This document shows, piece by piece, positions 177 through 57,219 of a stretch of DNA of 64,000 bases. Below the pieces are notes generated by a model. It saw nothing but the letters and a program-made list of their open reading frames with translations, was not told the origin of the DNA and ran no database searches. Both the position numbers and the translations under genes were made by a program. Every line of letters begins with the position of its first letter. The first letter of the stretch is position 1. This stretch comes from Candidatus Uhrbacteria bacterium RIFCSPHIGHO2_12_FULL_60_25. Its GTDB lineage: Bacteria > Patescibacteriota > Patescibacteriia > 2-12-FULL-60-25. The stretch lies in NCBI GenBank assembly GCA_001791275.1, contig MGEH01000024.1, forward strand, positions 11,097 to 75,096, written 5' to 3'.

Positions 177-1346
177 TTACCATACAACGATAAATTTCAG
201 CACTGCGAAATACGTCTCCATCAACGGATTCGCGACCTTCCGCATGAACGGACTCTCCACGTCCTGATACGCGATTGCAGACACGAACCGTTTTAAGATC
301 TCGCGGTCCGAGCGTTTACGCAGGCTCCGCGTCTTGCGTCTCGTCGAGACAATGTAGCGCCACGTGGACGGCTTGAAGAACCAGGCCGTGGCGCGGCCCT
401 TCTCCTTGATCCAGCCGCCCTTGATCGCAAAGAGCCACGTGGCGATTTCAATCACGAACATCGCGGGCAACGTCAGAATGATTGTCCCGAGGCGATAATT
501 CATCAGAAAGACGGCCCAGCGGTTTCGCTCCATCCAGTACCACTTCTTCACCGAGCGTGAAAATTCGTAGCGGTGACGCAGGGTGCTCTTGGGCGCGAGC
601 AGGTTGTCGTGCCCCGCGATCATCATGCGCCAGCCCAGATCCAGGTCTTCGTGGTACGCGAAAAGCGTCTCGTCGAGCAGGCCGACCTCGCGGAGGACCG
701 AGTTGCGATAGAGGACGCCGGCACCGGACGCGTACGCGATCGGTTGGACGTCTCCCGGCGCTTCTGACACGGGTTGTTTGTACCCACGGCAGTAGCCGAA
801 CGCGGCGAAGTGGATGTCGTTCCCCGTGGAGTTGATCGTTGTCGGATCCTGCATGAGCACGAGGAGCGACTGGACAGAGCCCGCGTTCGGATGCGCTTCC
901 GCGACCGCGACCGCTTCGCGCAGCGACCCCTCTTCAAATGCCGCGTCGTGATTCAGAAGATAGCAGTAATCGGCCGTGGACGTCCGCATGACCAGATTGT
1001 TCCCTGCCGCGAAGCCCGTGTTCGACCCGGGTTCGTGCAACACGACCTTCGGCAGGTTTTCAGGAGGATTTGCGAGCACGGACTTCACGTAGTCCGCCGA
1101 CCCGTCGGACGACGCGTTGTCCACGATGTGGACCGTGAAGGCGTCGCGCGGGTAGTCCACGACGCACAACCCGCGCACGAGCTCTTCCAAATATGGCCGT
1201 GCGTTCCACGTGACCACGATGACGTCGACCACGGGAACCGGGAACCGGAAACCGGAAACCGGAAAATTGGAACAGGGTGGTGTTCCCCGTTCCCCGTTCC
1301 CGGTTCCCGGTTCCCGGTTCCCGGTTCCCTGTTCCCGGTCATTCAT
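177..1346 (-). CDS. Family 2 glycosyltransferase (GT-A fold) with hydrophobic C-terminal segments
   Basis: 389-aa ORF. VVDVIVVTWNARPYL...HIVDNASSDGS is a typical GT2 N-terminus. The first ~38 codons are encoded by the heptamer hairpin; an alternative GTG start lies at 1230-1232. Confidence 0.9.
   Translation of the reverse strand: MNDREQGTGNREPGTGNGERGTPPCSNFPVSGFRFPVPVVDVIVVTWNARPYLEELVRGLCVVDYPRDAFTVHIVDNASSDGSADYVKSVLANPPENLPKVVLHEPGSNTGFAAGNNLVMRTSTADYCYLLNHDAAFEEGSLREAVAVAEAHPNAGSVQSLLVLMQDPTTINSTGNDIHFAAFGYCRGYKQPVSEAPGDVQPIAYASGAGVLYRNSVLREVGLLDETLFAYHEDLDLGWRMMIAGHDNLLAPKSTLRHRYEFSRSVKKWYWMERNRWAVFLMNYRLGTIILTLPAMFVIEIATWLFAIKGGWIKEKGRATAWFFKPSTWRYIVSTRRKTRSLRKRSDREILKRFVSAIAYQDVESPFMRKVANPLMETYFAVLKFIVVW
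1233..1336. repeat. Inverted heptamer arrays (GGGAACC-type x6, spacer, GGTTCCC-type x8) forming a long hairpin
   Basis: Read directly. 1233-1274 = GGGAACC GGGAACC GGAAACC GGAAACC GGAAAAT TGGAACA. 1281-1336 = TGTTCCC CGTTCCC CGTTCCC GGTTCCC x4 TGTTCCC. Confidence 0.9.
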
Positions 1347-1683
1347 GTTTCTGTTCCGGAAGTTCTTTGAGCGCGTCCTTCCTCACCACGTCTGTCAAAC
1401 GACGCTCAACGCGATCAAGCGTCAAAAAAATCTTGAACACGAGGAAGAAAAGCGTGACGACCGACGCGTACAACACGAAGTCCACGCCGCGGCCAACGCC
1501 GAAGAAGTTCGCCACCGTCGTGGTGGTCTGCGGAAGGAGGATGATGACGCCAGCGATCACCCAGAGCACGCTCCAGCCGAGCGCCTCGCGCCACGAGATG
1601 ACACCCTGCGTGGCACGACGCCAGGTGACGTAGAGCGCTAATACGAGGCTTGAAATTAATACAATCTGTATGAGCATATTCAT
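1339..1683 (-). CDS. Small membrane protein, DUF2304-like (commonly partnered with GT2 genes)
   Basis: Real start is MNMLIQIVLISS at 1683, in an ATGA overlap with the upstream stop. About 114 aa with three hydrophobic segments. The longer 215-aa ORF is an upstream extension overlapping the GT2 gene. Confidence 0.75.
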   Translation of the reverse strand: MNMLIQIVLISSLVLALYVTWRRATQGVISWREALGWSVLWVIAGVIILLPQTTTTVANFFGVGRGVDFVLYASVVTLFFLVFKIFLTLDRVERRLTDVVRKDALKELPEQKHE

Positions 1684-2354: not shown

Positions 2355-2386
2355 TGCAGGCTACGTTACGGGAAAACTCATTACAT

Positions 2387-4267: not shown

Positions 4268-4714
4268 CTACGCCGCGTCATGCCTCGGATGGAACGTGTA
4301 CAACCGATGCGTGAAATAGCTAACGCCGGCCACGAGGAACGCGGAACCCACGAGGACGATGAAGTCGTAAATCTTCAACACTTCGTGCCCGATGTAAAAC
4401 AACGTCCCTGTCAATGCGGACCCTGCGACGACCACGCCGATGTATCTGGCGACCATGCGTGCATTGAATCCGCGCGCCTTGAACGTCCACGTCCGGTGCA
4501 TGGTGAAGTTGTACACGGCCGAGATCGTCACGGCGATCACGGATTCGAACGTTCGGTTCCCTTCCGTCCACAGAACGCGTGAGAGGAGTGCGTATACACC
4601 GGCATTGATTCCGAGCGATGTTCCCCCGACGACCCCGAACTTAAACAAATTCCACACCTCACTCCAAAGGAATTCCCACGTCACGTTTTTCTCTTTGAGA
4701 AATCTTCGAATCAT
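4268..4714 (-). CDS. GtrA-family small membrane protein (polyprenyl-P-sugar translocation family)
   Basis: Start taken at MIRRFLKEK (4714), because the upstream gene ends at 4740. FKFGVVGGTSLGINAGVYALL followed by four hydrophobic segments. Confidence 0.8.
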   Translation of the reverse strand: MIRRFLKEKNVTWEFLWSEVWNLFKFGVVGGTSLGINAGVYALLSRVLWTEGNRTFESVIAVTISAVYNFTMHRTWTFKARGFNARMVARYIGVVVAGSALTGTLFYIGHEVLKIYDFIVLVGSAFLVAGVSYFTHRLYTFHPRHDAA

Positions 4715-4739
4715 GGCGGAGAGTGTAGCAGGAAGACGT

Positions 4740-6599: not shown

Positions 6600-6602
6600 A
6601 AA

Positions 6603-6663
6603 AATTTCTAATTTCTAATTTCTATAATAGAGTTTAGAAATTAGTCATTAGAAATTAGAAATT
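6603..6663. promoter_or_regulatory. AT-rich palindrome of heptamer arrays (TTTCTAA x3 / TTAGAAA x4) in a divergent promoter region
   Basis: 6605-6625 = TTTCTAA TTTCTAA TTTCTAT. 6634-6661 = TTAGAAA TTAGTCA TTAGAAA TTAGAAA. Lies between the divergent starts at 6599 (-) and 6717 (+). Confidence 0.5.
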
Positions 6664-9038: not shown

Positions 9039-9965
9039 TTAGAGCCTACTCGCGGGCGCCGGATCTGTCGAGGGAACGGGACGCGCGGTCACGATCATCA
9101 TGTCGCGCGGGTTGATGCGGACGGACAGGCGTTGCAGGAGCGGCCGTTCGGTGAGCCGTTTCAACCACTTCCATTCGAACCCGAGCCACCCCATGATGAA
9201 GTGGATCACGTAGGCGATCGTAAAATCCTTGCCGCGCCACTCGACGGAAACGAACTCAAACCCAGAGTCCGCCAGGCACGCCTTCATGCTCTGGAGCGAG
9301 AAGTAATGGATGTGCTGCGGAGGCGCCAAGAGCGTCCACCATCGGCCCGTGATGCGCGCGAACCAGGAGTCGCTCTGGGGCGTTGCAAACATGATGAGCC
9401 CGTCTGATGACATGATGCGTCGTATCACGCGGAAGAACTCGAACGGATCGCGCAGGTGCTCCACCACATCCCAAAGCGTGATCGCATCCACGCCCCGGAA
9501 CCGCTCGGCGTTCGCTTCGAGCGTCCCCTGCGCCACGTCCAACCCGCGCGCCCTCATGACCGTGGCCGCGTGCTCGGACAGTTCCACGCCGGACGCCTTC
9601 CAACCGCGTTCCTCTGTCATGCGCATGAAAAAACCCGTAGCCGCGCCCACATCGAGCAACCAACCCTTGGACGGTTTCCGCGCTTCGATGCGCTCGAGGA
9701 AATACGTGAAATCCGTTGCCACGCTCTGCTTGTCGCGATCGTAGTTCACGTACCCGTGCTTGGACGTATCGCCCTGGAAATACCCTTTGTCGTAGAACGC
9801 GATCAGCTCCGCCTCGGTCGGGATCGGGTGGATCCACAGGTGCTTGCACGTCCCGCACCGGTACAGCGACCAACGGTCTTTCGTGAACGCGAAACGGCCC
9901 GTGTGTCCGCTCTTCCCGGACGGACATGCGAGCTCGTTCGGACGCGATGCTACGGCTTCTTCCAT
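9039..9965 (-). CDS. Class I SAM-dependent methyltransferase with an N-terminal Cys-rich (zinc-ribbon-like) segment
   Basis: 308 aa. CPSGKSGH...YRCGTCKH followed by the LLDVGAATGFF SAM motif. Confidence 0.8.
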   Translation of the reverse strand: MEEAVASRPNELACPSGKSGHTGRFAFTKDRWSLYRCGTCKHLWIHPIPTEAELIAFYDKGYFQGDTSKHGYVNYDRDKQSVATDFTYFLERIEARKPSKGWLLDVGAATGFFMRMTEERGWKASGVELSEHAATVMRARGLDVAQGTLEANAERFRGVDAITLWDVVEHLRDPFEFFRVIRRIMSSDGLIMFATPQSDSWFARITGRWWTLLAPPQHIHYFSLQSMKACLADSGFEFVSVEWRGKDFTIAYVIHFIMGWLGFEWKWLKRLTERPLLQRLSVRINPRDMMIVTARPVPSTDPAPASRL

Positions 9966-11887
9966 ACGGAAACGTTATTGCCAACATGTTCTTCGACGTA
10001 CCCGGCCGGCAACTGCCAGAACGCACTCTGCGGATCCGGAATGATGACCCACGGACAGAACGCGCGGAAGGCGTACTTGTCCAACGTATGACGATTGATC
10101 GCCGCTTCGACGCGCTTCCAGTTCGCGTCGATCACGGCCTGACGGCACCCGATGAGTTCATTCGCCCGAGCCTGGTCGAACCCCATGCGTCGCAACACGT
10201 CCGCATAGAACGCATTGTGCGAATACTTGCTCCCTTCGGCGCACGGGATCGTTCGGTAGTGACCCGTGTAGAACCGGAAGAACCAGAGTTCGCCTGACGA
10301 CGTGACGCTGTATGCGCCCACCAGCGTCTCCAGATCGCGAATGACCTGCTCGCTTGAGTCGGGGTACGACAACGTGGGTTCAGCCGGATTCACGCGGCGT
10401 CCCGTATGGGCGGCGTAGAACGACGCGGATCCGGGATCGGCGCACATCATGTCTCCGGGCGGGACGTGAGACCTGATCCAGTCCACGACCGGGACGTTCA
10501 CCATGACCTCCGGGACCTTGGGAAAGTCCCGCAGGATGACGGGGATGCTTGCTCCGACCCCGATGGCTGCCATGGGCAGCGTGATGAGGATCGTGACGAC
10601 GGTCGTGTTCAGATGTGACGAGGTATGTCTCGACCGCCAGACCACGAGCCAGGCCGCCACGGCGAGCGCGAACCAGTGCGTCAGGTGGATCACGTACGAG
10701 TCGAACTTCCAGATATTCGATCGAAGCGGCTGCTGGAGCACGTAGACGAAGAACAACGTGGCGCCCGCGGCGACGACAAGCGGAAGTTGTTTGATGAGTG
10801 CATTTCCCAGTCCCCGTTTCCCAGTCCCCGTTTCCCAGTCCCCAGTCCCCAGACCCCAGACCGTGGCGAGCGAAAGCCATGCGAGCACGGCCACGGGCGC
10901 GATGAAGTGGTCGCTGTAGATATGGATGCCGGTGAACGGCGTGTTGAACCACAGGAAGAACAGGACGATCCATCCCCATGCCGCGAACGTGAGTCGATCG
11001 CGTGCGGCTGGCGACGCGGCGCGGCGCGCCAGTGCGAACAGGAACGCGATCCATGCGAGCATGGCAAGCACCGTGTTCGCGAAGAATGGCACGCGCGCGA
11101 ACACCATCCCGTTCCGCTCGTACATGCCCACGAGCCCTGCGCGCGCCGGATCGAGGAACCACTCTGCAAGCGGACCGGCGAGCGTCCACACGGTGATGAC
11201 GGAGAGCGCGACCAGGACCGGCAAGGTCCACGTGCGCAGCCGGACGAACCGCGCGGCCCAGATCGTGGCGAGCCAGAGTCCCGCGGGCATGAGGAACCAC
11301 GGGTAGAGGGTCGTGAGAAGGAGCGACGCGACGGACAGACCGATGGACCGGACGTATCGGTCTTTTTTCAGGGCTTCGTACGCCGGAAGGACGAGCGTAA
11401 GCCCGAGCATGCAAAACGGCAGGTACCACGAGTACATCCCGGGCCGGAGACTCAAGGGCAGGAGCGACAACCAGAGGCCCGCGATGACAGCGCGTGACGG
11501 CCAGCGCGCGATGCCTGACCACTGCTCCACGCACCAGGCGCCGATCCAGAGCGTGAGCGTGATCGCGATCCATCGGCTCACGATCCAGAGCTCCGGGACG
11601 CTCGCCCATGAGCCGACGAGCTTCCAGAGCGCCACGATGATAAGCGACCCGAACCATTTCAGGTGTCCGCCGTACGCGAGCCCGTTCGCCGCGGCGCCCA
11701 TCCAGTGCAGGTAGACGTACGTATCGAAGACCCCCGGAGTGACGGCGGGCACACGCCACCAACGTTCCACGTGCGCGGACACGTTCCAAATCCAATACGG
11801 CACCCAGGAGACAAGCCCTGTCAGGACCGGCACGCCGACCCACCATGCGCGCTCTCCATATCGCTTGAGGTCAAATGAGCGGGACAT
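9950..11887 (-). CDS. Large polytopic membrane protein, paralogue 1 of an unnamed family (GT-C-like candidate)
   Basis: 645 aa with many hydrophobic segments. Shares the VFDTYVYL loop motif, PFTGIHIYSDHF and four C-terminal Cys positions with the ORFs at 15274-17133 and 45625-47697. Confidence 0.85.
   Translation of the reverse strand: MSRSFDLKRYGERAWWVGVPVLTGLVSWVPYWIWNVSAHVERWWRVPAVTPGVFDTYVYLHWMGAAANGLAYGGHLKWFGSLIIVALWKLVGSWASVPELWIVSRWIAITLTLWIGAWCVEQWSGIARWPSRAVIAGLWLSLLPLSLRPGMYSWYLPFCMLGLTLVLPAYEALKKDRYVRSIGLSVASLLLTTLYPWFLMPAGLWLATIWAARFVRLRTWTLPVLVALSVITVWTLAGPLAEWFLDPARAGLVGMYERNGMVFARVPFFANTVLAMLAWIAFLFALARRAASPAARDRLTFAAWGWIVLFFLWFNTPFTGIHIYSDHFIAPVAVLAWLSLATVWGLGTGDWETGTGKRGLGNALIKQLPLVVAAGATLFFVYVLQQPLRSNIWKFDSYVIHLTHWFALAVAAWLVVWRSRHTSSHLNTTVVTILITLPMAAIGVGASIPVILRDFPKVPEVMVNVPVVDWIRSHVPPGDMMCADPGSASFYAAHTGRRVNPAEPTLSYPDSSEQVIRDLETLVGAYSVTSSGELWFFRFYTGHYRTIPCAEGSKYSHNAFYADVLRRMGFDQARANELIGCRQAVIDANWKRVEAAINRHTLDKYAFRAFCPWVIIPDPQSAFWQLPAGYVEEHVGNNVSVWKKP
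10803..10865. repeat. Nine tandem heptamers (TTTCCCA GTCCCCG ... GACCCCA) in-frame within the membrane-protein gene
   Basis: Read directly. The coding strand is TGGGGTC TGGGGAC TGGGGAC TGGGAAA CGGGGAC TGGGAAA CGGGGAC TGGGAAA, encoding GLGTGDWETGTGKRGLGN. Confidence 0.85.
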
Positions 11888-17849: not shown

Positions 17850-17892
17850 AGACTACAGAAGTGAGTCGCGATTGACAAGCAATATCGATCAC

Positions 17893-41634: not shown

Positions 41635-41758
41635 ACAGATCGACGATTAGGATAGTGTACTGTCAATCGTCATTTTTTTGCAAGGAATCAAGTTTCAAGA
41701 CAAATAACCCTTGCTATTGCAGTCGTTTCCCGATACAATTCACTCAATATTAATCGAT

Positions 41759-41968
41759 ATGGCATCACGTCGTAAGAGGGTGTTGGTCGTTGGAGCCAAT
41801 GGATTCATCGGTCGAGCACTCACATCACGACTCGTCTCCCTCGGTTATCATGTTGTGGCTGCGTCTCATTCACAATGTCATGGAATCTCTGCTTCGCAAA
41901 TACGAACTGGCGACCTACGCGACGCACGCTACTGTCGGCGTATTACGAGGGATGTTGACATTATTTAA
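41759..41968 (+). pseudogene. Truncated remnant of an NAD-dependent epimerase/dehydratase (Rossmann N-terminus only)
   Basis: MASRRKRVLVVGANGFIGRALTSRLVSLGYHVV... stops after 69 codons and abuts the 3' end of the convergent AT-rich membrane gene. Confidence 0.55.
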
Positions 41969-41977
41969 ATAACAGAC

Positions 41978-43672: not shown

Positions 43673-43699
43673 AAGTGAATGAAAGATAACAATTTCCTA

Positions 43700-45624: not shown

Positions 45625-47697
45625 ATGCCCGTTTTTTCCGCCGCCGTCAAACCCCCGGGATGGCTCGGTTATGCGGCTTTCCGCTTGACCATGGGCGTGT
45701 ATGAGCCTAGTCTGCATGTCATGTCCCCCTTCGCTGTCGCTCCGGGGGACGCGTGGAGCATGATGACACCGAAGGAACCCCGTCCCACGAAGCCCCGCAT
45801 ATTGCGGGGCGAAGTGGAATGGTGGCTCGGCGCGCCCATCGCGGTCGCACTCCTGACCTGGGGGCCGTATTGGGTCCGGAATCTCGCGATCGGACGCAAA
45901 GACTGGACTCGCATCCCGGCGCTCGCGGCGACCGTGTTTGACCTCACGGCCTATCTGCAACCGATCGGGCAAGCGATGACGGGTGTCGTGACCGCACATC
46001 TCATCGGTCCTTTCGCGCTGCTCATGCGTCTCATCGCGCTCACGTTCCCGAACGCGAGCGTGCCCGAAGCCTGGTTTGTGGCACGATGGATGGCGACGAC
46101 CGCGGCGCTGTTTGTATTCGCATGGTGCCTTGAGCGCTGGTCCGGAGTGGGTCGTAACATGGCGCGCCTGCTGTCGCTCTCATTCTGGATCGCGTTCATC
46201 CTCGTGCTCGGCATGAAACCCGGATTCGCCTCGTGGCTGTTCCCGTTTGGTGTGCTTGGGATGGTCGGTGTGACCATCGTTGGTGAGCGTCTCACAAAGC
46301 GACGGATCATTTCCGCGATCGTGTGGTCTGCCATCGCACTCACAAGTTCCTCGCTCTATGCCTGGTACTTTTTATTCGTTGCCGTGTGGCTCGGCGTGAC
46401 CTGGTTCCTCTGGCTCGTAAAAAATACTCCACGCGTCGCACTCTCGCTCGCCGCGATCGGGTCCGTATCCGCTTGCGTATTCGCCGTCGTGTTCGCCTAC
46501 TGGATCACGCTCACTCCCGCAGGCATCGTCTGGATCGAACTGACCCAACGCCTGTCATTGAGCTACACGCACATGATCTTCATCTCGGGATCCGTGCTGC
46601 TCACGATGCTCTGGACCGTTCTCTTCGGAGCAATCTATGCGGTCGCGAGTTCGGACGATCGACCAAAGATCGAGGTGACGGGCATTGCCTGGCTCTCGCT
46701 CCTCTTCACCTTCTTCCACTCCCCGTTCACCGGCCACTACATCCAGAACGATCACTTCCGAAGCGCCGCCGCGATCCTTTCCTGGTTCGCCCTCGCCGTC
46801 ATCTGGTCTCTCGTTCATCAAAGTCCGACGACGCACGACGCACGACGCACCCGTTTCATCCCCTATCTCACCCTCTTCATCTCCCTCGCCTACGTGATCC
46901 GCATCCTCGCCGCCCCCTATGCCTGGAACCGTGACTTCTTGAACGTGCTTCAACTCACGCACTGGTTCGCACTGCTCATCGCATCATGGCTCGCGATTCG
47001 ATGGATGCAAGGAAAGAAACCGCTCGAGACAAAGACGTTCGCGACCATCGTCCTTTCCGGATCACTCCTGATCGGAGGCAACGCAATGGCAGCGACCTAC
47101 TTCTATGAATTCAAAGACCTTCCAAAGATCGAAGCGCTCATACCCGTCTTCAACTGGGTGAAAGCGAATGTGCCACCAGGAATCTCAATCTGTACAGGCC
47201 AGGGAGGAGAAGGATTTAATATCGATGACATGTTGGCCGCTCAGACAGGACGTGTAGTGCATTTCTCACATACCACCATGTACCACAAAGAACGAGACGT
47301 AGCTCTTCTTGACAGGCTACGTGTTATTTCCGGTTTTTTTGATGCGGGAACGGCTGGTGATCAAGTAAACTGGCAGCTCTTGAGCTCAGAAAACCAATTC
47401 ATCGTCTGTGCTCAGTATCCCGTGCAGGTGAAGCTGTTCCATGCACTCGGTCTCTCTGAAGATCGTATTGATGCGCTCATCGGCTGTCCTCGAAAGACGA
47501 TCGATGCACGCTGGGCGTATGTGAAGGATGCGATGGATCACCCGATCCGAGACATGGAAGCGTTCAAGCGTGTGTGTCCATTTGTCGTCGTCCCGAACGC
47601 AAAAAAATCGTATTGGCATTTGCCGGATGACTATCGTGAAATCCCTGTGACGAACGAGATATACGTGTTTGCATCTATATCAACCGATCTTCGATGA
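45625..47697 (+). CDS. Large polytopic membrane protein, paralogue 3 of the unnamed family
   Basis: 690-aa ORF. By comparison with the paralogues, the start is likelier at 45721 or 45760. VFDLTAYL, PFTGHYIQNDHF and the conserved C-terminal Cys positions are present. Confidence 0.85.
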   Translation: MPVFSAAVKPPGWLGYAAFRLTMGVYEPSLHVMSPFAVAPGDAWSMMTPKEPRPTKPRILRGEVEWWLGAPIAVALLTWGPYWVRNLAIGRKDWTRIPALAATVFDLTAYLQPIGQAMTGVVTAHLIGPFALLMRLIALTFPNASVPEAWFVARWMATTAALFVFAWCLERWSGVGRNMARLLSLSFWIAFILVLGMKPGFASWLFPFGVLGMVGVTIVGERLTKRRIISAIVWSAIALTSSSLYAWYFLFVAVWLGVTWFLWLVKNTPRVALSLAAIGSVSACVFAVVFAYWITLTPAGIVWIELTQRLSLSYTHMIFISGSVLLTMLWTVLFGAIYAVASSDDRPKIEVTGIAWLSLLFTFFHSPFTGHYIQNDHFRSAAAILSWFALAVIWSLVHQSPTTHDARRTRFIPYLTLFISLAYVIRILAAPYAWNRDFLNVLQLTHWFALLIASWLAIRWMQGKKPLETKTFATIVLSGSLLIGGNAMAATYFYEFKDLPKIEALIPVFNWVKANVPPGISICTGQGGEGFNIDDMLAAQTGRVVHFSHTTMYHKERDVALLDRLRVISGFFDAGTAGDQVNWQLLSSENQFIVCAQYPVQVKLFHALGLSEDRIDALIGCPRKTIDARWAYVKDAMDHPIRDMEAFKRVCPFVVVPNAKKSYWHLPDDYREIPVTNEIYVFASISTDLR
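46830..46850. repeat. (GACGCAC)x3 perfect heptamer tract in-frame in the membrane-protein gene
   Basis: Read directly. Encodes part of TTHDARRT, in the loop homologous to the tract at 10803-10865. Confidence 0.8.
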
Positions 47698-49533: not shown

Positions 49534-49534
49534 A

Positions 49535-51623: not shown

Positions 51624-51669
51624 TGAAGTCGCATGGTAATGAAAAACGACTGTTTTGGCAACCGTTTTG

Positions 51670-52368: not shown

Positions 52369-53516
52369 ACTCTGTGAACGCGACGTTGAAGCGACGCAAC
52401 CCATTCAAGGATTCTCCTGGAACGCTCCGACCAGGTGTATCGCGCGCTTAACGCGAGCGCAGCCGCCGCCTTGGCGCGCGCTTCATCCGGACGATCCATG
52501 GCGCGCACGATCTGGAGCGCGAGCGTGTTGACATCACCGGGCAAGGCGAAAAACGCCGACCGTTCATCCACGATCTCGCGGACCGAGGGCAGGTCCGTCA
52601 CGACCATCGGCACGCCGCTCATGAGATACTCAAAGAGCTTTAGCGGAGACATGTACAACGCGTAATGTTCCGTATGCGGAAACGGCATGAGGAGCAGGTC
52701 TGCGGCGGCATAGAACCGCTTCAGATCCGCTTGCGGAACATGCCCGCGCAGTTCAGTCCCGTCCTGGACACGGGGACGGTACCGCGCGATCTCTTCCGGC
52801 GTCCCGCCGACGGCGATCAGCCGGAGCTTCCGTTGTTTGCCGCGAAGATGCGCGACAGCCACAATCGCCTCATCCAGACCCTTCGGCATGCCCATGGTGA
52901 GAAACTTCCCGGTATAGAGACAGACGAATTCGCCATCCGGAATGCCGAGCGCGCGCCGTGCCGAAACGCGATCAGGCGCGCCTGCAAACAACGCTGGATC
53001 GACCGCGTCTGGTTCCACGAGGATCCGGTCGGACGGAAACCCGAACGACGAAAGGCGTTCTTTTGACGCGCGCGTGAGTGTCACGATCGCATCCATCGTG
53101 CGCATGGCGCGACGGCCGAACCACGACGAGTGGACACGGTGCGATTCCCATACGCGAAGCCCTGGAACGTCGCCGAATGAAAAAACGTACGGTTCGCGGC
53201 TGTACACGAGGTCGGGTCGGTATGTGAGCAGCCGGGGACGAAGCGCTCGGATGAACGTCGCCGTCTGAATCCAAAATCCAAGCGCGCCGAGCCAATGCCA
53301 ACGGAGCGCGTCGGCGCACGGCACGCGCTCGAACACGAATGTTTTCGGCTTGTCGTAATAGGCAAACGGATCATCCGCGACCACGGGCGTGCGATCCGTA
53401 ACATACAGGCGCACCTCATGACCGAGCGCCGCAAACGCCGAACACACGGCCATCACCTGGTCGCTCTGCGCTTTTTCCGACGGGAAACGGCTGTTTGCGA
53501 TGTAGGCGATTTTCAT
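52365..53516 (-). CDS. GT4 glycosyltransferase
   Basis: 383 aa. MKIAYIANSRFPSEKA, with a C-terminal SPLKLFEYLMSGVPMVVTD region. Confidence 0.88.
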   Translation of the reverse strand: MKIAYIANSRFPSEKAQSDQVMAVCSAFAALGHEVRLYVTDRTPVVADDPFAYYDKPKTFVFERVPCADALRWHWLGALGFWIQTATFIRALRPRLLTYRPDLVYSREPYVFSFGDVPGLRVWESHRVHSSWFGRRAMRTMDAIVTLTRASKERLSSFGFPSDRILVEPDAVDPALFAGAPDRVSARRALGIPDGEFVCLYTGKFLTMGMPKGLDEAIVAVAHLRGKQRKLRLIAVGGTPEEIARYRPRVQDGTELRGHVPQADLKRFYAAADLLLMPFPHTEHYALYMSPLKLFEYLMSGVPMVVTDLPSVREIVDERSAFFALPGDVNTLALQIVRAMDRPDEARAKAAAALALSARYTWSERSRRILEWVASLQRRVHRV

Positions 53517-56059
53517 ATCTTTTTCTTACGTCGCAATCGGTCCCAAATGACGACGAGCGCCATCGCCGCCAGAATCGCGAGCAGATTATCCAACGGAATC
53601 CGGTACTTCGTGTACCCAGCGATGATGGAATGCAACGCGGAATACACCGCAAAGACGATCAGGATCGGGACGATAACCCCGAACATCTTCCGTCGCTTCG
53701 CGAGGACGAGTCCGGCGAGCGTCAAGACTTCAAGTGCGAAGACGTACCCAGCGAGCGACCAGCGCGCCGCCATGATTTTCCAGCCCGCGTCCGCGAATGA
53801 CCATTGCGCGCCGTATTTCAACCCAGGCTGAAGCATCGGTGACCAGAACCCGGCGACCTTCAACGCCTGCAACTTCCATCCTTCAGACCAGTAGTTTTGC
53901 TTCAACCAATCCATCCCAACCTTCGTCCAGTAGTCGTTGAACTCCGGCTCGCTCATCGCTCCAGTATCCTTGCACGATGTCCGACTGTCACCAGGTTCAT
54001 GAGGATGCCACTCGGTGAACAGTCGTGACGGTTTGAGCCAACCCCGTTCGCGAAGCGCCGCTTCGACTTCCGGCAGCATCACGTACCGCACCTCCTGCGG
54101 GTTGTCCGGATTGAACACGCGCTCGCTCGTCTGCACTTCCTGCGGGAATCCGAGGACCGTGAGACCGTACATATTTTCGCTGTTCGCCTTGGCCAAGGCA
54201 TGTCCCAAATCCGTAGTCAGCGGCACGAACCGGTGGAACGCCTGCCAGTTCCGGTACGTCCACGGCGCAATGAGCGCGGCCGAGACGATCCCCATGATCG
54301 CGATCGCGAGCACTGCGCGCTTCACGTCCTTTCGCCAGCGCCACAAAAGCCATGCGGACAAAAGGACGGTCGCGGGCAGAATCGTCCCTTGGACGTACGC
54401 CAACGCCGCGATCCAAACGCCGGTCCCGACGGCCCATCGCATTCGCTTCGTCTCTTCGAGACGCAGCAGACTGAAGAGCAGCGTCACGAGGAACAAGCCG
54501 GACAGCACCGTGTGGTAGTACTGCGTGTAGTGATAGAAGGTGTACGGATGGATGGCGGTCAGAACCGCCGCGACGAGACCGACTCGACGGTCTTTCGTGA
54601 GCGCCCAGCCCAGGCGGTAGACCATGTACGTGAGAAGGACGGCCAGAGCGTTTTGGACGACTGCCTGCGCAAAGAAATTCGCAAACCCGAACAACCCGTA
54701 CACTCCCGTCAAGAAAAACAAAAAGCCGGGCGAACGGTACGCCGACACGCACCCGACGTCCTGCACGAACGAGTAGCCGTATCCCAGGAACCAATTCTGC
54801 ACGAGGGTGAAGAATCCCCACTCGCGATTCGCACCAAGCGTCTTCCAGAAAAGCGCCACGGACAGGCCTCGCACGAGAACCGCGAATCCGATCACCCCCG
54901 CCGTCCACATCCATACACGACGGCCGGGAACCGGGAACGGGGAACCGAGAACCGTCCATGCAGCGTGCTGCCGACGGACGAGCTCCCCAGCATCAGGAAA
55001 CTCCTTCGATCTCTCATACGCATTCTTCACCATCCACTCGCGGCGCTCTGACTCCGACAGTTGCTCGCGAATCGCCGCGACGAGCCCCGCGATATCATTA
55101 GGTTGGACGACACGACCATCTATTTGCGGCCTGAAAAACGATCCCACGCACCCCACATCCGTCGTCACGATCGGCACGCGCGCGGCCATTGCTTCCACGA
55201 TCGTCCTCCCCCACCCTTCATATCGGGAAGACAGAACGAACAGGTCAGCACCGCGCCACAGGTCTTCCTGTGAAGACCAAGGCTCGATCGTGACGATATC
55301 ACTCAGCTTGAGATCATGAATAAGCCGTTCGACGGCTCGCCGGAGCGGTCCTGCGCCGACAAGTCGCGCTCGAAAATCGACACCTTGCTCACGAAGCGAC
55401 GCGAGCGCACGGACGAGCACATCCAGCCCCTTCTGCTTCACGAACCGGCACGGCGCCACGATCGTCGGCGCCTTGGACCAAGGCTTTGGTTCTCGCGAGA
55501 GAAGACCCGTCAGGTTCTGCGCAACCGGAATAACGCTGATGCGGTCGGCCGCGACGTGACATCGCCGGACCAGATGATCGCGTACCCGCTCACTCACGAC
55601 CCTCACGCCGTCCGCGCGGCGCAGGAAGAACTTTCCCCACCCGGCCATGACTTCGTGAAAAAACGGCAATTCGCGCTCCCACGCGCCCGAATAGTAGTCC
55701 GCGTGCTCCTGGACCTCGTACGGAACGTCGAGCAGCCGTGAGACGAGAAAAGCGACGAAACCGGCCGCGAACGGATCTTGCGCCGTGATGATCGGCGTCT
55801 CGCCGGTCTTGCGCGCTCGCCTGACCGCCCGCATGACGGCGACGGTTGCTTTCCACACGCGGACGATTGCATTGCCGCGAAAACCGTACACGCACGTCTG
55901 CGAATCTCCGCGCTCCGCGTTCTGATGCGCGTTCGCGAGCAACACCGCGGTCACGCGGACGTCGTCTGACGCGAGAGCCGCGAGACGGCCCGAAGATTCT
56001 GACGCCGGATCCAGGAATCCGCGCTCGTACGACAGCATGATGATGCGGAGCGGCTTCAT
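53513..56059 (-). CDS. Fusion: GT4 glycosyltransferase (N, ~385 aa) + GT-C/PMT_2-like polytopic membrane domain (C, ~460 aa)
   Basis: 848 aa. N-terminal part has YEGWGRTIVEAMAARVPIVTTDVG. The C-terminal part has many TM segments. The domain junction is encoded by the heptamer tract (SPFPVPGR). Confidence 0.88.
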   Translation of the reverse strand: MKPLRIIMLSYERGFLDPASESSGRLAALASDDVRVTAVLLANAHQNAERGDSQTCVYGFRGNAIVRVWKATVAVMRAVRRARKTGETPIITAQDPFAAGFVAFLVSRLLDVPYEVQEHADYYSGAWERELPFFHEVMAGWGKFFLRRADGVRVVSERVRDHLVRRCHVAADRISVIPVAQNLTGLLSREPKPWSKAPTIVAPCRFVKQKGLDVLVRALASLREQGVDFRARLVGAGPLRRAVERLIHDLKLSDIVTIEPWSSQEDLWRGADLFVLSSRYEGWGRTIVEAMAARVPIVTTDVGCVGSFFRPQIDGRVVQPNDIAGLVAAIREQLSESERREWMVKNAYERSKEFPDAGELVRRQHAAWTVLGSPFPVPGRRVWMWTAGVIGFAVLVRGLSVALFWKTLGANREWGFFTLVQNWFLGYGYSFVQDVGCVSAYRSPGFLFFLTGVYGLFGFANFFAQAVVQNALAVLLTYMVYRLGWALTKDRRVGLVAAVLTAIHPYTFYHYTQYYHTVLSGLFLVTLLFSLLRLEETKRMRWAVGTGVWIAALAYVQGTILPATVLLSAWLLWRWRKDVKRAVLAIAIMGIVSAALIAPWTYRNWQAFHRFVPLTTDLGHALAKANSENMYGLTVLGFPQEVQTSERVFNPDNPQEVRYVMLPEVEAALRERGWLKPSRLFTEWHPHEPGDSRTSCKDTGAMSEPEFNDYWTKVGMDWLKQNYWSEGWKLQALKVAGFWSPMLQPGLKYGAQWSFADAGWKIMAARWSLAGYVFALEVLTLAGLVLAKRRKMFGVIVPILIVFAVYSALHSIIAGYTKYRIPLDNLLAILAAMALVVIWDRLRRKKKI
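54926..54953. repeat. Four GGGAACC-type heptamers at the GT4/GT-C domain junction
   Basis: GGGAACC GGGAACG GGGAACC GAGAACC read directly on the plus strand. The gene is on the minus strand, so the coding strand reads GGTTCCC-type units. Confidence 0.75.
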
Positions 56060-57219
56060 AGATTCAGGGCTTCCAGCGTCTTCTTCACCATGGTCTCAAA
56101 TCGCAACGCGTCCGGCACGGCCGGCGTCGTCCGTTCAGGCCATGGTCCTGACAGGGCGGTACGCCATGCGCCGACGTCACCATACGGCAAGACGCGCACG
56201 AGCTCGCCCAAGAGCTCGCGCGTCTCCGGGTTCCCGCCCTTGTCGCTCACGAAGCTCGGCAGACCCACGGACGCGGCCTCGGGCACCACGTGCGGGAAGC
56301 CTTCGTATCCGGACGGAAGGACGAACAGGTCGGCCGCGCGGTACCAGTCCGCGAGCGCCGTGCGGTCGAGTCTGCCGACAAACCGCACTCGGTCACCGAC
56401 GCCCCGTTCAGACGCGAGTTTTTTCCAGTCGTCCAACGATGGCCCGTCGCCTGCGACTACTAAGACGACGTCGCTGGGCAGGTCGGACATGATCCCGATG
56501 ATAAAATCCACGCCTTTCCAAGGCACGCATCGCACCGCCGTGAGCATCACGCGCTTACCCTCGATGTTGAGTCGCATCGTCGAAGAGGGCAGCGGTTCTG
56601 CCGCATTGTAAATGACGCGAATGCGTCCTTCCGGCACGCCCCATGCCTTCACGACAGACGCGAGATACCGGCTCGGCACGATCATGCGGATCGCCCGTTT
56701 CGCCGTCCATCGCTCGATCCATTCCAAGACGCGGACCGTCCCCACATGCCGATGCGTCAAAAATTCATCCAACAATTCTTTTCGTCCGGTTCCCGGTTCC
56801 CCGTTCCCGGTTCCCCGTTCCCGGTTCCCGGCTTCCCGTTCCCCGTTCCCGGTTCCCTGATACATCTCCCATGCATAATCCCCAACCACCTTCATCACCG
56901 TGGATTTGCCAGCGAGCATCGCACCGATCGTGCCTGGCAGACCCTCCGAGACAGGCCCTTGAAGATAAACGACGTCAACGAGCCGTGCTCTGCGACGTAC
57001 GGTATCCGCAAACTTCCAATATCGTGCCAAAATGTTGCGATTGCGTCCGATCCGTTCAACCGGATATCCGTCCACGTGCTCAATCCCGTCTTTCTCGCCG
57101 TATGCGACCACCTGCACTTCGTGCTCTGAAGACAACGCTGCCCGAGCAAAGGCCCGGGTGTATGTGGCAGGTCCGCCTGCGTCCGGCGGATAGATGCCAG
57201 TTGCAAGAAGTATCTTCAT
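56056..57219 (-). CDS. GT4 glycosyltransferase carrying a repeat-encoded insertion
   Basis: 387 aa. MKILLATGIYPPDAGGPA and YEGFPHVVPEAASVGLPSFVSD. Contains an internal QGTGNGEREAGNRERGTGNGEPGTGRK segment. Confidence 0.9.
   Translation of the reverse strand: MKILLATGIYPPDAGGPATYTRAFARAALSSEHEVQVVAYGEKDGIEHVDGYPVERIGRNRNILARYWKFADTVRRRARLVDVVYLQGPVSEGLPGTIGAMLAGKSTVMKVVGDYAWEMYQGTGNGEREAGNRERGTGNGEPGTGRKELLDEFLTHRHVGTVRVLEWIERWTAKRAIRMIVPSRYLASVVKAWGVPEGRIRVIYNAAEPLPSSTMRLNIEGKRVMLTAVRCVPWKGVDFIIGIMSDLPSDVVLVVAGDGPSLDDWKKLASERGVGDRVRFVGRLDRTALADWYRAADLFVLPSGYEGFPHVVPEAASVGLPSFVSDKGGNPETRELLGELVRVLPYGDVGAWRTALSGPWPERTTPAVPDALRFETMVKKTLEALNL
56788..56857. repeat. Ten tandem GGTTCCC-type heptamers in-frame within the GT4 gene
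   Basis: GGTTCCC GGTTCCC CGTTCCC GGTTCCC CGTTCCC GGTTCCC GGCTTCC CGTTCCC CGTTCCC GGTTCCC, read directly. Confidence 0.9.

What the first reader, a model, noticed from the sequence alone, without database searches (positions are those of the whole stretch)
1233..56857. Dispersed family of 7-nt-periodic GGGAACC/GGTTCCC tracts embedded in envelope-glycosylation genes
The same heptamer (consensus GGGAACC on one strand) forms tandem arrays at three loci:
- 1233-1336: 6 + 8 units, inverted;
- 54926-54953: 4 units;
- 56788-56857: 10 units.

Two related tracts exist. A G-run heptamer array of 9 units (TGGGGAC/TGGGAAA on the coding strand) is at 10803-10865. A perfect (GACGCAC)x3 is at 46830-46850.

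All five tracts lie inside, or at the very start of, ORFs for glycan-assembly proteins: a GT2, a GT4, a GT4-GT-C fusion and two paralogous polytopic membrane proteins. They occur in both orientations relative to the host gene. Every ORF stays open through its tract, giving 7-aa-periodic peptides (GTGNREP, FPVPGSR, GTGDWET). I saw no such tracts in the nucleotide-sugar pathway genes of this window.

A 7-nt unit is not codon-compatible, so gain or loss of one unit would frameshift or truncate the protein. That is the logic of simple-sequence contingency loci in the LOS/capsule glycosyltransferase genes of Haemophilus, Neisseria and Campylobacter.

Two alternatives: these are small selfish insertions tolerated in-frame (compare Rickettsia palindromic elements), or they are G-quadruplex-prone regulatory tracts, since (GGGAACC)n fits the G3N4 pattern.
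Basis: partly seen in the sequence, partly recalled or inferred. Interest (0 to 1): 0.82.

Follow-up and report, generated by a model that had tools for sequence, protein, structure and literature searches.

The report
Seven-base repeats inside sugar-transferase genes
Short tandem repeats with a 7-base unit sit inside the surface-sugar-building genes of this tiny groundwater bacterium and its relatives, where losing one unit breaks the gene, so they may switch cell-surface sugars on and off, though no switching was seen in this genome.

Summary
The tracts are real. Period 7 is essentially the only tandem periodicity in the window (8 runs, against 1 of period 8 and 0 for all other periods from 2 to 15).

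The source is a Candidatus Uhrbacteria genome (Patescibacteria/CPR, Rifle aquifer). The whole window is one glycan-synthesis cluster, so enrichment cannot be judged here.

In about 0.8 Mb of related loci, period 7 again dominates (67 arrays; 6 for all other periods). Arrays concentrate in GT4 glycosyltransferase genes:
- Non-focal GT ORFs hold 31 arrays in 217 kb; non-GT ORFs hold 4 in 433 kb (p = 2e-11).
- Arrays recur at a few fixed sites of the GT4 fold, with different units in different lineages.

Two relatives show natural copy-number variants. A Falkowbacteria GT4 has lost exactly one unit in one contig and is split in two, against 10 intact contigs. Another GT4 carries 8 units in one sample and at least 17 in another.

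The window's own tracts are identical in five aligned assemblies; thirteen contigs encode the identical GT4. Some tracts are decayed.

Verdict: heptanucleotide slippage repeats with contingency-locus architecture. G-quadruplex potential only reflects this genome's high GC. This is a new variant of a known kind.

The parts
1232..1265 (-). Heptamer array, about 4.9 units (GGGAACC/GGAAACC as read on the + strand). It forms one arm of an inverted pair between the DUF2304 stop codon and the GT2 domain.
   Evidence: TRF; sequence.
1282..1339 (-). Heptamer array, 8.3 units (GGTTCCC as read on the + strand). It forms the other arm. It contains 4 perfect units and two G4 motifs on the - strand.
1227..1341 (-). 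Long hairpin formed by the two inverted arrays on the transcribed strand. It overlaps the annotated N-terminus of the GT2 and is absent from a relative about 90% identical.
   Evidence: Folded as DNA: -48.1 kcal/mol, z = -7.0. Alignment with L128. P0132 compared with P0131.
177..1346 (-). GT2 glycosyltransferase ORF (389 aa). The GT2 domain starts at residue 40, so the tract encodes only the non-conserved residues 5-40.
   Evidence: Pfam; translation.
6603..6624 (.). Intergenic AT-rich heptamer array (AATTTCT)x3.1. It lies 4 nt upstream of the start codon of the S8 peptidase gene. The unit contains stop codons on both strands.
6634..6663 (.). Inverted partner array (TTAGAAA)x4.3, 54 nt upstream of the Bac_transf (initiating sugar transferase) gene. 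With 6603-6624 it forms a hairpin.
   Evidence: Fold: -13.9 kcal/mol, z = -5.5.
10803..10862 (-). Heptamer array of about 8.6 units (sense strand GGGGACT/GGGAAAC; 14-nt super-unit x2.9, perfect). It lies in a hypervariable loop of the 645-aa polytopic protein. The unit is the same as the Nostoc STRR-type GGGGACT.
9950..11887 (-). Polytopic membrane protein of 645 aa, with no Pfam family.
46828..46850 (+). Perfect (ACGACGC)x3.3 array in the homologous loop of the 690-aa paralogue.
45625..47697 (+). Paralogous polytopic membrane protein of 690 aa.
   Evidence: BLASTP: 30% identity, E = 2e-94.
54924..54954 (-). Decayed heptamer array, 4.4 units (sense strand GGTTCCC). It lies in the linker between the GT4 and PMT_2 (GT-C-like) domains. 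The L130 orthologue carries a different heptamer at the same linker.
53513..56059 (-). GT4-PMT_2 fusion protein of 848 aa. The fusion is conserved in L127 (884 aa) and in the neighbour of P0006 (870 aa).
56786..56857 (-). Heptamer array, 10.3 units (sense strand GGGAACC/GGGGAAC, with one 8-nt unit). It encodes residues of about 121-146 of the GT4, a disordered loop between the invariant motifs GDYAWE and ELLDEFL.
   Evidence: The AlphaFold2 model has pLDDT below 50 at residues 134-144.
56056..57219 (-). GT4 (GT-B fold) glycosyltransferase of 387 aa.
   Evidence: Pfam. Foldseek matches to BshA, MshA, PimA and PglA.

Best explanation
**What they are.** The tracts are heptanucleotide simple-sequence repeats (7-nt microsatellites). 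They are made and kept homogeneous by replication slippage.

**Where they occur.** They are not peculiar to this window. They are a lineage-wide trait of Patescibacteria (Uhrbacteria, Falkowbacteria and other Parcubacteria) glycan-synthesis clusters.
- They concentrate in GT4 glycosyltransferase genes and in the spacers next to them.
- They occupy a handful of fixed surface sites of the GT-B fold.
- The site persists across lineages while the unit sequence turns over (concerted evolution).

**How they most likely work.**
- Seven is not a multiple of three. Only arrays whose net length keeps the reading frame are seen as consensus sequence.
- Any change of one or two units truncates the enzyme.
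- The arrays therefore act as frameshift-prone, potentially reversible on/off sites for surface-glycan enzymes, that is, contingency-like loci.

**In this window.** All tracts are in the intact ('on') configuration. Some are interrupted or decayed and may be largely frozen. The two inverted pairs (1232-1339 and 6603-6663) lie outside conserved coding sequence. They more probably act as DNA or RNA hairpins, or as variable-length spacers, at gene starts.

**Shown versus inferred.**
- Shown: the periodicity, the enrichment in GT4 genes, the site recurrence, and natural variants that differ by one unit or by many units in relatives.
- Inferred: slippage as the generating process, reversibility, and any adaptive value.
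For: 1. Period-7 specificity. The window has 8 runs of period 7 against 1 of period 8 and 0 for all other periods; simulations gave 0.0. In 80 related loci (779 kb) there are 67 arrays of period 7, against 1, 1, 2 and 2 for periods 3, 6, 8 and 9.

2. Enrichment in GT genes.
- 56 of 71 arrays lie in ORFs that hit the window's GTs (expected 28.6), and all 56 host ORFs best-match window genes carrying GT4 (Glycos_transf_1) domains. Only 2 lie in 348 kb of other ORFs (expected 30.6) and 2 in nucleotide-sugar/AsnB genes.
- After removing duplicate loci and the gene used to fetch each locus: 31 arrays in 217 kb of GT ORFs against 4 in 433 kb of non-GT ORFs. The rate ratio is 15.5, p = 1.8e-11.
- GC content and the frequencies of period-6 and period-8 repeats are the same in both classes.

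3. Contrast with other phyla. In 119 (GGGAACC)3 loci from other phyla, 184 of 211 arrays are not coding-like and none is near a GT. Coding, GT4-borne arrays are therefore specific to this lineage among the loci examined.

4. Site recurrence with unit turnover.
- All five GT4 orthologues aligned at DNA level carry a heptamer array in the same loop: GGGAACC, GGCAGTC, GAGAGGC, AACATKG+CCAAATW and CCAAATT.
- 41 arrays map to about six profile sites.
- 61 of 120 homologues of a second GT4 family have peptides with 7-aa periodicity, at three positions.
- Arrays at one site share phase and a related unit, AATYTMA, across genomes.

5. Natural variants.
- L210 differs from 10 contigs (L214-L223; 99.0-99.5% identical to L210) by deletion of exactly one AGTTACC unit. 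Its GT4 is split into 229 + 116 aa.
- L213 has 8 units, with the N- and C-terminal parts of the gene in different frames. L224 has at least 17 units at the same site.

6. Consequences in the window. Simulated changes of 1 or 2 units truncate all five window host proteins. Changes of 3 units keep them open.

7. Tolerance in the window. The window GT4 tract is the main low-confidence, disordered excursion of an otherwise confident model, with mean pLDDT 89.
Against: - The window's own tracts show no variation. Thirteen contigs encode the identical GT4 and five assemblies are identical at DNA level. Variant proteins with 13 and 3 substitutions keep the same tract peptides.
- In the 80 loci fetched without regard to array state, 43 testable arrays were all in frame and none was off. 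In isolate genomes of classical contingency organisms, many loci are found switched off (my own knowledge, not checked here).
- Typical arrays have only about 4 units. Documented heptanucleotide switches have 6-38 units.
- Genes often carry 2-3 arrays, in mid-gene. Classical switches have one tract near the 5' end.
- Several window tracts are imperfect (86-87% matches).
- The off alleles seen could simply be deleterious mutants.
- All related loci were fetched through a GT4 gene, so genome-wide distribution has not been measured.
- In the polytopic-protein family, orthologues do not show recurrent arrays.
Confidence: 0.5

Rival explanations
1. Non-adaptive by-product. A heptamer-specific slippage bias of the replication machinery seeds 7-nt arrays everywhere. 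Selection removes them from constrained genes. They survive only in fast-evolving, dispensable GT4 genes and in spacers, at structurally permissive sites. The frameshifted alleles are ordinary deleterious mutants, not a switch.
For: - Heptanucleotide repeats are the commonest long SSR class in many bacteria. A polymerase-footprint explanation has been proposed (summarised in PMC4679880; PMC4692102).
- The same GGGAACC arrays occur in many phyla, mostly outside genes.
- All 43 testable arrays are in frame.
- The window tracts are invariant and partly decayed.
- The window GT4 tract lies in a disordered loop whose length varies from 9 to 46 aa among 120 homologues.
Against: - A 15-fold excess over other ORFs, and a clear deficit in nucleotide-sugar genes of the same accessory clusters, is hard to obtain from tolerance alone.
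- Frame-neutral repeats of 3, 6 or 9 nt should be tolerated better, yet they are almost absent.
- 35 of 41 arrays replace structured, profile-matched residues rather than sitting in free loops.
- Perfect arrays persist at the same sites across lineages whose GT4 proteins are only about 30-50% identical. Neutral arrays should decay.
Confidence: 0.3
2. Mobile or copied cassettes. Arrays of about 30 nt spread between sites and between GT4 paralogues by short-patch conversion or transposition (selfish, like Rickettsia palindromic elements). Alternatively, they are landing pads or footprints of small palindromic elements.
For: - The identical imperfect 32-nt array AATTTAAAATTTAAAATTAAAAATTTAAAATT occurs at two different sites of one protein (L146) and also in L162, with a near-identical copy in L158.
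- Three diverged paralogues in L198 carry near-identical AAATATT arrays at the homologous site.
- Arrays within one locus share a unit 10 times more often than arrays in different loci: 10/103 against 28/2823 pairs.
- GC-rich palindromic mini-elements sit in-frame inside arrays in L213, L224 and L141.
Against: - Arrays have no conserved termini or flanks.
- Units are extremely diverse: 52 canonical units among 77 arrays.
- The single-unit deletion in L210 and the 8 versus at least 17 units in L213/L224 are slippage-type changes.
- The window tracts share no flanking sequence.
Confidence: 0.08
3. Structure-forming regulatory tracts. The G-rich arrays form G-quadruplexes, or the inverted arrays form hairpins, in DNA or mRNA. 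These structures modulate transcription or translation of the host genes.
For: - 6 of the window's 7 canonical G4 motifs lie in the arrays, all on the sense strand of the host genes.
- (GGGAATC)n and (GGGGACT)n form G4 structures in vitro (PMC4692102).
- The inverted pairs fold strongly: -48.1 kcal/mol with z = -7, and -13.9 kcal/mol with z = -5.5. Both lie at gene starts.
Against: - Only 2 of 71 arrays in relatives have a G4 motif and only 5 contain any GGG or CCC. G-richness therefore follows this genome's 60% GC.
- Single arrays do not fold better than shuffled sequence, with z between -0.1 and -1.6.
- Unit sequences are not conserved, which argues against a sequence-specific binder.
- The 1232-1339 hairpin is absent from a relative about 90% identical.
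- Hairpin regulation remains plausible only for the two inverted pairs.
Confidence: 0.07
4. Recombination substrates. Shared arrays of about 30 nt at homologous sites of diverged GT4 paralogues give just enough identity for homologous exchange. This would shuffle the acceptor-binding (N-terminal) and donor-binding (C-terminal) domains to create new transferase specificities.
For: - Arrays cluster at the inter-domain linker and at the borders of C-domain elements.
- Identical arrays occur in paralogues of one genome.
- The modal perfect length is 29-34 nt.
Against: - No chimeric gene with a breakpoint at an array was observed.
- Most paralogues in one locus carry different units; L170 has 7 arrays with 7 different units.
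- The idea is purely inferential.
Confidence: 0.05

Closest known systems
Simple-sequence contingency loci in LOS/LPS/capsule glycosyltransferase genes of Haemophilus, Neisseria, Campylobacter and Helicobacter
   Same: - A tandem repeat lies inside a glycosyltransferase ORF or its promoter.
- The unit length is not a multiple of three, so a one-unit change frameshifts the gene.
- A natural one-unit deletion allele splits a GT4 in a relative.
- Arrays are enriched in surface-glycan genes.
   Different: - The unit is 7 nt rather than 1-5 nt.
- Arrays usually have only about 4 units.
- They lie in mid-gene, at conserved structural sites, and often 2-3 per gene.
- The hosts are free-living or episymbiotic groundwater Patescibacteria, not host-adapted pathogens.
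- No switching rate or phenotype is known.
- The window's own tracts are invariant in all assemblies.
Heptanucleotide phase-variable SSRs of Haemophilus influenzae: (TGAAAGA)n upstream of hmw1A/hmw2A, (AATTTTG)14 inside hmw1a, and (AACAACC)n in a TonB-dependent receptor gene (PMC2651432)
   Same: A 7-nt unit, found both in promoters and in ORFs, with frameshifted alleles attributed to changes in unit number.
   Different: Those tracts have 6-38 units and vary widely between strains. Here about 4 units is the norm (10 imperfect units in the window GT4). Variation was seen at only two loci in relatives.
Heptameric long SSRs: cyanobacterial STRR / GGGGA(C/T)T of Nostoc and GGGAATC of Xanthomonas (PMC4692102); TAACTGA repeats of Beggiatoaceae (PMC4679880)
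   Same: - The same period.
- Nearly the same units: GGGAACC differs from GGGAATC by one base, and GGGGACT is identical.
- A mode of about four units.
- Occasional inverted pairs.
- Many dispersed loci per genome.
   Different: Those repeats are mainly intergenic and under-represented in coding DNA. In Patescibacteria about 80% lie inside genes, almost all of them GT4 genes. Most units there are AT-rich and cannot form G4 structures.
Tandem repeats of Borg elements that create new disordered protein regions (PMC9879509)
   Same: Young, perfect, DNA-level tandem repeats inside ORFs that add or replace peptide segments and evolve rapidly.
   Different: As I recall that paper, Borg repeat units inside ORFs are multiples of three and so cannot frameshift; this was not checked here. 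The units here are 7 nt, and repeats of 3, 6 or 9 nt are almost absent.
Rickettsia palindromic elements (selfish elements inserted in-frame in genes)
   Same: Extra peptide segments are tolerated in-frame at permissive sites. In relatives, GC-rich palindromic mini-elements really are inserted in-frame within GT4 genes.
   Different: The heptamer arrays themselves have no conserved sequence or ends. They are not palindromic, except for the two inverted pairs. They change by whole units.

Membership tests
SSR contingency (phase-variable) locus | A tandem simple-sequence repeat lies within the ORF or promoter of the controlled gene. | tested here: met
   Arrays lie inside 4 ORFs, at one ORF start and in one divergent promoter region.
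SSR contingency (phase-variable) locus | The unit length is not divisible by three, so a change in unit number shifts the frame and truncates the product. | tested here: met
   Simulated changes of 1 or 2 units truncate all five host proteins. Changes of 3 units keep them open.
SSR contingency (phase-variable) locus | Unit number is polymorphic at the locus within populations or between close strains, with both on and off alleles. | tested here: inconclusive
   - Window loci: no variant in 13 contigs, 5 aligned assemblies or near-identical protein variants. Only consensus assemblies were available, not reads.
- Relatives: a one-unit deletion (off) allele in 1 of 11 contigs, and 8 versus at least 17 units at another locus.
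SSR contingency (phase-variable) locus | The repeat tract is long and pure enough to be hypermutable. | tested here: inconclusive
   The window has 3.3-10.3 units at 86-100% purity. Relatives have about 4 perfect units. Known heptanucleotide switches have 6-38 units. No mutation rates are available.
SSR contingency (phase-variable) locus | Measured, reversible, high-frequency switching with a phenotype. | not testable with these tools
   This needs cultures or read-level time series.
SSR contingency (phase-variable) locus | Preferential association with surface or antigenic determinants. | tested here: met
   GT4 genes compared with other ORFs give a rate ratio of 15.5, p = 1.8e-11. This cannot be tested inside the window, where everything is glycan-related.
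Heptanucleotide long SSR (STRR-type) family | Tandem arrays with a 7-nt unit and at least 3 copies, at many dispersed loci, over-represented relative to chance and to other periods. | tested here: met
Heptanucleotide long SSR (STRR-type) family | Predominantly intergenic location, as described for Xanthomonas and Nostoc. | tested here: not met
   In the window, 4 of 6 loci are coding. In the 80 metagenome loci, 57 of 67 arrays lie inside ORFs. The other-phyla control is 87% not coding-like. Location is a descriptive feature of this family, not a defining one.
G-quadruplex-forming repeat | Four or more G3+ tracts with loops of 1-7 nt. | tested here: met
   Six motif instances fall in three window arrays. 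In relatives only 2 of 71 arrays have a motif, so this is not a property of the family.
G-quadruplex-forming repeat | Demonstrated G4 folding and a regulatory effect. | not testable with these tools
   In-vitro data exist only for the related GGGAATC and GGGGACT repeats.
Selfish in-frame insertion element (RPE-like / MITE) | A conserved element sequence with defined (inverted) termini, shared by all copies. | tested here: not met
   The window tracts share no flanks or termini. There are 52 different canonical units among 77 arrays.
Selfish in-frame insertion element (RPE-like / MITE) | Present as an insertion relative to orthologues that lack it. | tested here: inconclusive
   The window GT4 loop is about 20 aa longer than the 9-12 aa baseline, and the GT2 N-terminal tract is absent from L128. 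But 35 of 41 arrays in relatives occupy profile match states at equal length.
GT4 (GT-B fold) glycosyltransferase (host gene 56056-57219) | Glycos_transf_1 and Glyco_trans_4 domains, and a two-Rossmann-domain fold. | tested here: met
   Pfam E = 1.6e-26. AlphaFold2 mean pLDDT 89. Foldseek matches to BshA, MshA, PimA and PglA, with E down to 2e-17.

The most novel reading that the evidence does not exclude
Patescibacteria (CPR) carry an ancient, site-conserved system of heptanucleotide frameshift switches built into GT4 glycosyltransferase genes.
- Each array is held at the one length that keeps the enzyme intact.
- Single-unit slippage turns individual glycosyltransferases off and on again.
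- This would give these ultra-small, repair-poor episymbionts a phase-variable surface glycan coat, for example against phages or for host-cell attachment.

As far as my literature searches reach, this would be the first contingency-locus system described in Patescibacteria and the first based mainly on 7-nt units inside ORFs.

A linked possibility is that the linker array at 54924-54954 toggles the GT4-PMT_2 protein between fused and stand-alone forms. Loss of one unit gives a 386-aa GT4, which matches the unfused gene organisation in L125 and L126.
Probability: 0.4. Interest if true: 0.85.

Novelty: new variant of a known kind. Interest (0 to 1): 0.68.

Why it matters
Patescibacteria are a large, mostly uncultured fraction of bacterial diversity. 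They live attached to other cells, and how they vary their surfaces is not well understood.

**What was found.** A frameshift-prone repeat class is built specifically into their GT4 glycosyltransferase genes, at conserved structural sites, with natural on and off alleles.

**What it makes testable.** Stochastic surface-glycan variation in these organisms can now be tested with data that already exist: read-level repeat counts in groundwater time series.

**The wider puzzle of heptamer repeats.**
- Here G4 formation cannot explain why about four units is the modal length in coding DNA.
- An alternative I propose, but did not test, is the frame rule: one native unit plus three added units keeps the reading frame.
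- The system also allows slippage and selection to be separated.

**Practical point.** These arrays break contigs (L224 starts inside one). They also split gene calls, which affects annotation of CPR glycan clusters.

Tried and rejected
1. Flank-anchored scan of metagenome contigs for copy-number variants of the GT4 tract (pattern with N{56,84}). It found 0 hits although the pattern matches the window. That collection evidently lacks the Rifle contigs, so the scan is uninformative.

2. Search for off alleles among the 80 fetched loci. All 11 arrays not enclosed by an ORF turned out to lie at true gene borders. All six cases with different frames on the two sides involved two different neighbouring genes.

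3. G-quadruplex as a general explanation: rejected.

4. Hairpin formation by single arrays: no better than shuffled sequence.

5. Known RNA families: none in the window.

6. Pfam at E <= 1 for the polytopic and other unknown proteins: nothing found. Calling the two polytopic proteins 'glycan-assembly' proteins therefore remains an inference from context.

7. Recurrent arrays in the polytopic family: not found. The loop is merely variable in length.

8. Assembly artefact: rejected, because independent assemblies are identical and the arrays are shorter than the assembly k-mer.

9. P0006 locus: DNA not retrievable.

10. L211/L212 (P0262): the sequence after the array is unrelated and GC-rich. 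This is a rearrangement or a chimera, not a clean frameshift, and it was not counted as evidence.

11. P0017: a fragment with a 36-aa deletion next to the window-type tract, from a low-quality source. Not counted.

12. Whole-genome enrichment for the source genome: could not be tested.

Full report
**1. The observation**

Tandem Repeats Finder reports period-7 arrays at:
- 1232-1265 (4.9 units)
- 1282-1339 (8.3 units, reverse complement of the first)
- 10803-10862
- 46828-46850 (3.3 perfect units)
- 54924-54954 (4.4 units)
- 56786-56857 (10.3 units)

My own periodicity scan of the whole window gave 8 runs of period 7, one of period 8 (61977-62004) and none for any other period from 2 to 15. 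With a stricter cut-off 6 period-7 runs remain, and 200 second-order Markov simulations gave a mean of 0.0.

The tracts are not assembly artefacts. Thirteen contigs encode the identical 387-aa GT4. Five loci from five assemblies are 100% identical to window 46056-64000, apart from one SNP in one of them.

**2. Context**

The window comes from Candidatus Uhrbacteria (RIFCSPHIGHO2_02_FULL_60_44 and _12_FULL_60_25), a Patescibacteria/CPR genome of 60% GC from the Rifle aquifer.

Practically every gene in the window belongs to glycan synthesis: GT2, GT4, epimerases and dehydratases, AsnB-type amidotransferases, DegT, a flippase, methyltransferases and Bac_transf.

Host genes:
- A GT2 (177-1346). 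The tract covers only residues 5-40, ahead of the domain.
- A GT4 (56056-57219).
- A GT4-PMT_2 fusion (53513-56059). The tract lies in the inter-domain linker.
- Two polytopic proteins with no Pfam match, even at E <= 1. They are true paralogues, with the tracts in the aligned loop.

The inverted pair at 1232-1339 lies exactly between the stop codon of the upstream DUF2304 gene and the start of the GT2 domain. It forms a hairpin of -48 kcal/mol on the transcribed strand (z = -7). A relative about 90% identical (L128) lacks it and has about 2.4 units of CGTCCGT there instead.

The AT-rich pair at 6603-6663 lies in the divergent region between the S8 peptidase gene and the initiating sugar transferase gene. 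It also folds into a hairpin (z = -5.5). Its unit contains stop codons on both strands, which fits its intergenic position.

**3. The phenomenon is lineage-wide**

Orthologues of the window GT4 place the tract in a hypervariable loop between the invariant motifs GDYAWE and ELLDEFL. The loop is 9-12 aa long in 81 of the 120 listed homologues and 14-46 aa long in about a quarter.

DNA of four orthologues shows a heptamer array in that same loop in every case, each with a different unit:
- L129: GGCAGTC
- L127: GAGAGGC
- L125: AACATKG plus CCAAATW
- L126: CCAAATT

The AlphaFold2 model of the window GT4 is confident (mean pLDDT 89). Its only low-confidence segments are residues 134-144, inside the tract, and a short stretch at 14-18. 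The fold matches BshA, MshA, PimA and PglA.

A protein-anchored scan returned 80 related loci (779 kb). These contain 67 arrays of period 7, against 1, 1, 2 and 2 for periods 3, 6, 8 and 9. Units are very diverse and mostly AT-rich.

Perfect-array lengths are bimodal, with a second mode at 29-34 nt (about 4.1-4.9 units) and a valley at 21-28 nt. I suggest, without having tested it, that this reflects frame preservation: one native unit plus three added units equals +21 nt. The window GT4 array of about 10 units also fits a 1 + 3n series.

**4. Enrichment**

I classified ORFs of the related loci by BLASTP against the Pfam-annotated window proteins.

| Class | Arrays observed | Sequence | Expected |
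|---|---|---|---|
| ORFs hitting window GTs | 56 of 71 | 326 kb | 28.6 |
| Other ORFs | 2 | 348 kb | 30.6 |
| Nucleotide-sugar/AsnB ORFs | 2 | 74.5 kb | 6.5 |
| Intergenic or at ORF edges | 11 | 40 kb | 3.5 |

. All 56 GT-borne arrays are in GT4-type genes.

After removing duplicate populations and separating out the gene that was used to fetch each locus:
- Non-focal GT ORFs still hold 31 arrays in 217 kb, against 4 in 433 kb of non-GT ORFs. The rate ratio is 15.5, p = 1.8e-11.
- GT genes against nucleotide-sugar genes give p = 0.0025.

GC content (0.398 against 0.415) and the frequencies of period-6 and period-8 repeats are the same in the two classes. Only period 7 differs.

As a contrast, I examined (GGGAACC)3 loci from other phyla (at least 119, against about 0.3 expected by chance). 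They contain 211 heptamer arrays. None is near a GT homologue and 184 are not coding-like. That is the intergenic pattern already described for Xanthomonas and Nostoc (PMC4692102).

**5. Fixed sites, changing units**

Forty-one arrays could be aligned to a profile built from array-free orthologues.
- They fall at about six positions: 43-63, 120-131, 188-209, 228-241, 248-263 and 343-351.
- 35 of them occupy match states. They replace native residues at equal length rather than adding loops.

In a second GT4 family, whose members the sources name Falkowbacteria, Parcubacteria and Portnoybacteria:
- 61 of 120 homologues carry peptides with 7-aa periodicity (77 segments, against 5-19 for other periodicities).
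- These lie at three positions.

At the site just after the GxGP motif, arrays from different genomes share phase and a related unit (AATTTAA, AATCTCA, AATCTAA). This points to one array evolving in concert.

There are also hints of copying:
- The same imperfect 32-nt array occurs at two sites of one protein and in other genomes.
- Three paralogues in L198 share one array.
- Arrays within a locus share a unit 10 times more often than arrays in different loci.

**6. Variation**

For the window itself, none was found.

Among the 80 loci fetched without regard to array state, 43 testable arrays all keep the same frame on both sides.

Inspection of 90%-identity clusters of array-bearing GT4s did turn up truncated members:
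- **L210.** It differs from ten contigs of the same Rifle Falkowbacteria population (L214-L223; 99.0-99.5% identical to L210) by deletion of exactly one AGTTACC unit. This leaves about 3 units instead of 4 and splits the 378-aa GT4 into 229 + 116 aa. The only other indels across the 11 contigs (up to about 7 kb each) are one of 2 nt and one of 8 nt.
- **L213.** It carries 8 units (TTTCGGA/TGTCGGA), with the N- and C-terminal parts of the gene in different frames.
- **L224.** It comes from another sample and starts inside the same array with at least 17 units. Its downstream sequence is identical to L213.

**7. Interpretation**

What is shown:
- A heptamer-specific tandem-repeat process.
- Strong retention in GT4 genes and their spacers.
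- Site persistence with unit turnover.
- Slippage-type alleles in nature, differing by one unit or by many units, that inactivate the gene.

What is inferred:
- Slippage is the generator. Mrazek's polymerase-footprint idea is cited in PMC4679880.
- Off alleles revert.
- The arrangement is selected for its mutability.

Against an adaptive switch:
- Arrays are short (about 4 units) compared with proven heptanucleotide switches of 6-38 units (PMC2651432).
- No off states were found among the loci fetched without regard to array state.
- The window tracts are invariant and partly decayed.

I therefore give the contingency-like reading 0.5 and a non-adaptive slippage by-product 0.3. Copy or mobile cassettes, structural regulation and recombination substrates share the rest.

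The G4 idea fails as a general explanation, because only 2 of 71 arrays in relatives have a G4 motif. Six of the window's seven G4 motifs do lie in the arrays, but this follows from the genome's 60% GC.

For the two inverted pairs, hairpin or spacer effects at gene starts are the more natural reading.

**8. Comparison and novelty**

SSR switches in glycosyltransferase genes are classical in host-adapted pathogens. Heptanucleotide long SSRs are known from cyanobacteria, Xanthomonas, Burkholderia and Beggiatoaceae.

My full-text searches found no paper linking either phenomenon to Patescibacteria or to GT4 genes.

What is new here:
- The combination of 7-nt units inside ORFs, specifically in GT4 genes.
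- Their placement at conserved structural sites.
- Their occurrence across a major uncultured radiation.

I therefore rate this a new variant of a known kind. Interest is moderately high because the claim can be tested directly on existing read data.

Noticed in passing
window 6603-6663: An intergenic inverted pair of AT-rich heptamer arrays, (AATTTCT)x3 and (TTAGAAA)x4, in a 60% GC genome. It lies between the divergent S8 peptidase and Bac_transf genes and forms a hairpin (z = -5.5).
   Followed up: partly
window 61977-62004: A perfect octamer array (GCACTCAA)x3.5 in the 35-nt gap between the divergent AsnB-like gene (60031-61980, - strand) and the GT4 gene (62016-63242, + strand). This is a promoter-region repeat of another period.
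   Followed up: no
window 15274-18396 and 40387-44407: Two low-GC islands (GC 0.38-0.46, against 0.60 elsewhere; third-codon-position GC 0.36-0.51). They hold GT2 genes, two large proteins with no Pfam match (619 and 564 aa), a cytidylyltransferase and a DegT aminotransferase. They look like horizontally acquired glycan cassettes, and they carry no heptamer arrays.
   Followed up: no
L213 about 590-745 and about 1925-1980; L224 about 230-385 and about 1550-1600; L141 about 4690-4840: GC-rich palindromic mini-elements (core TCACCGCC..GGGCGGGATCCCGCC..ATAATAAAGTGGCGGGAC; about 55 to about 190 nt; 65% GC in loci of about 42% GC). They are inserted in-frame inside heptamer arrays of GT4 genes, with array units on both flanks. 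In L140 and L142 the same site holds (ATTTCAG)x4.4 instead.
   Followed up: partly
window 54924-54954 (gene 53513-56059): Simulated loss of one unit ends the 848-aa GT4-PMT_2 fusion at 386 aa, leaving a stand-alone GT4. This matches the unfused gene organisation in L125 and L126 (375 and 393 aa). The L130 orthologue has a different heptamer (CTCGCTC x4.3) at the same linker.
   Followed up: partly
L006-L124 (genome-contig scan): (GGGAACC)3 occurs in at least 119 stretches from very diverse high-GC phyla: Gemmatimonadota, Acidobacteriota, Phycisphaerae, Streptomyces and a Bifidobacteriaceae MAG. Several genomes have 3-4 loci. These 828 kb hold 211 period-7 arrays, mostly not coding-like.
   Followed up: partly
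L211 1040-1225 and L212: Directly after a 14-nt-period array (TTTTCGA/TTGACGA) in a GT4 gene, the sequence becomes unrelated and GC-rich, in two assemblies. This is either a rearrangement or insertion at the array, or a chimeric contig.
   Followed up: no
P0017 (relative of window 56056-57219): A 225-aa fragment whose aligned residues are nearly all identical to the window GT4. It starts in a GGGAACC-type tract (PGTGNGKPGTG) and lacks the 36 residues that follow the tract. It comes from a read-level source of uncertain quality.
   Followed up: no
L218 about 5321 (GCA_001777995.1): A 2-nt deletion (GC) in the 549-aa GtrA-GT4 fusion gene of one Falkowbacteria MAG. No gene call is listed for that gene in this record. 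This is a second inactivating indel in the same glycan cluster, and it does not lie at any heptamer array detected in the reference contig L214.
   Followed up: no
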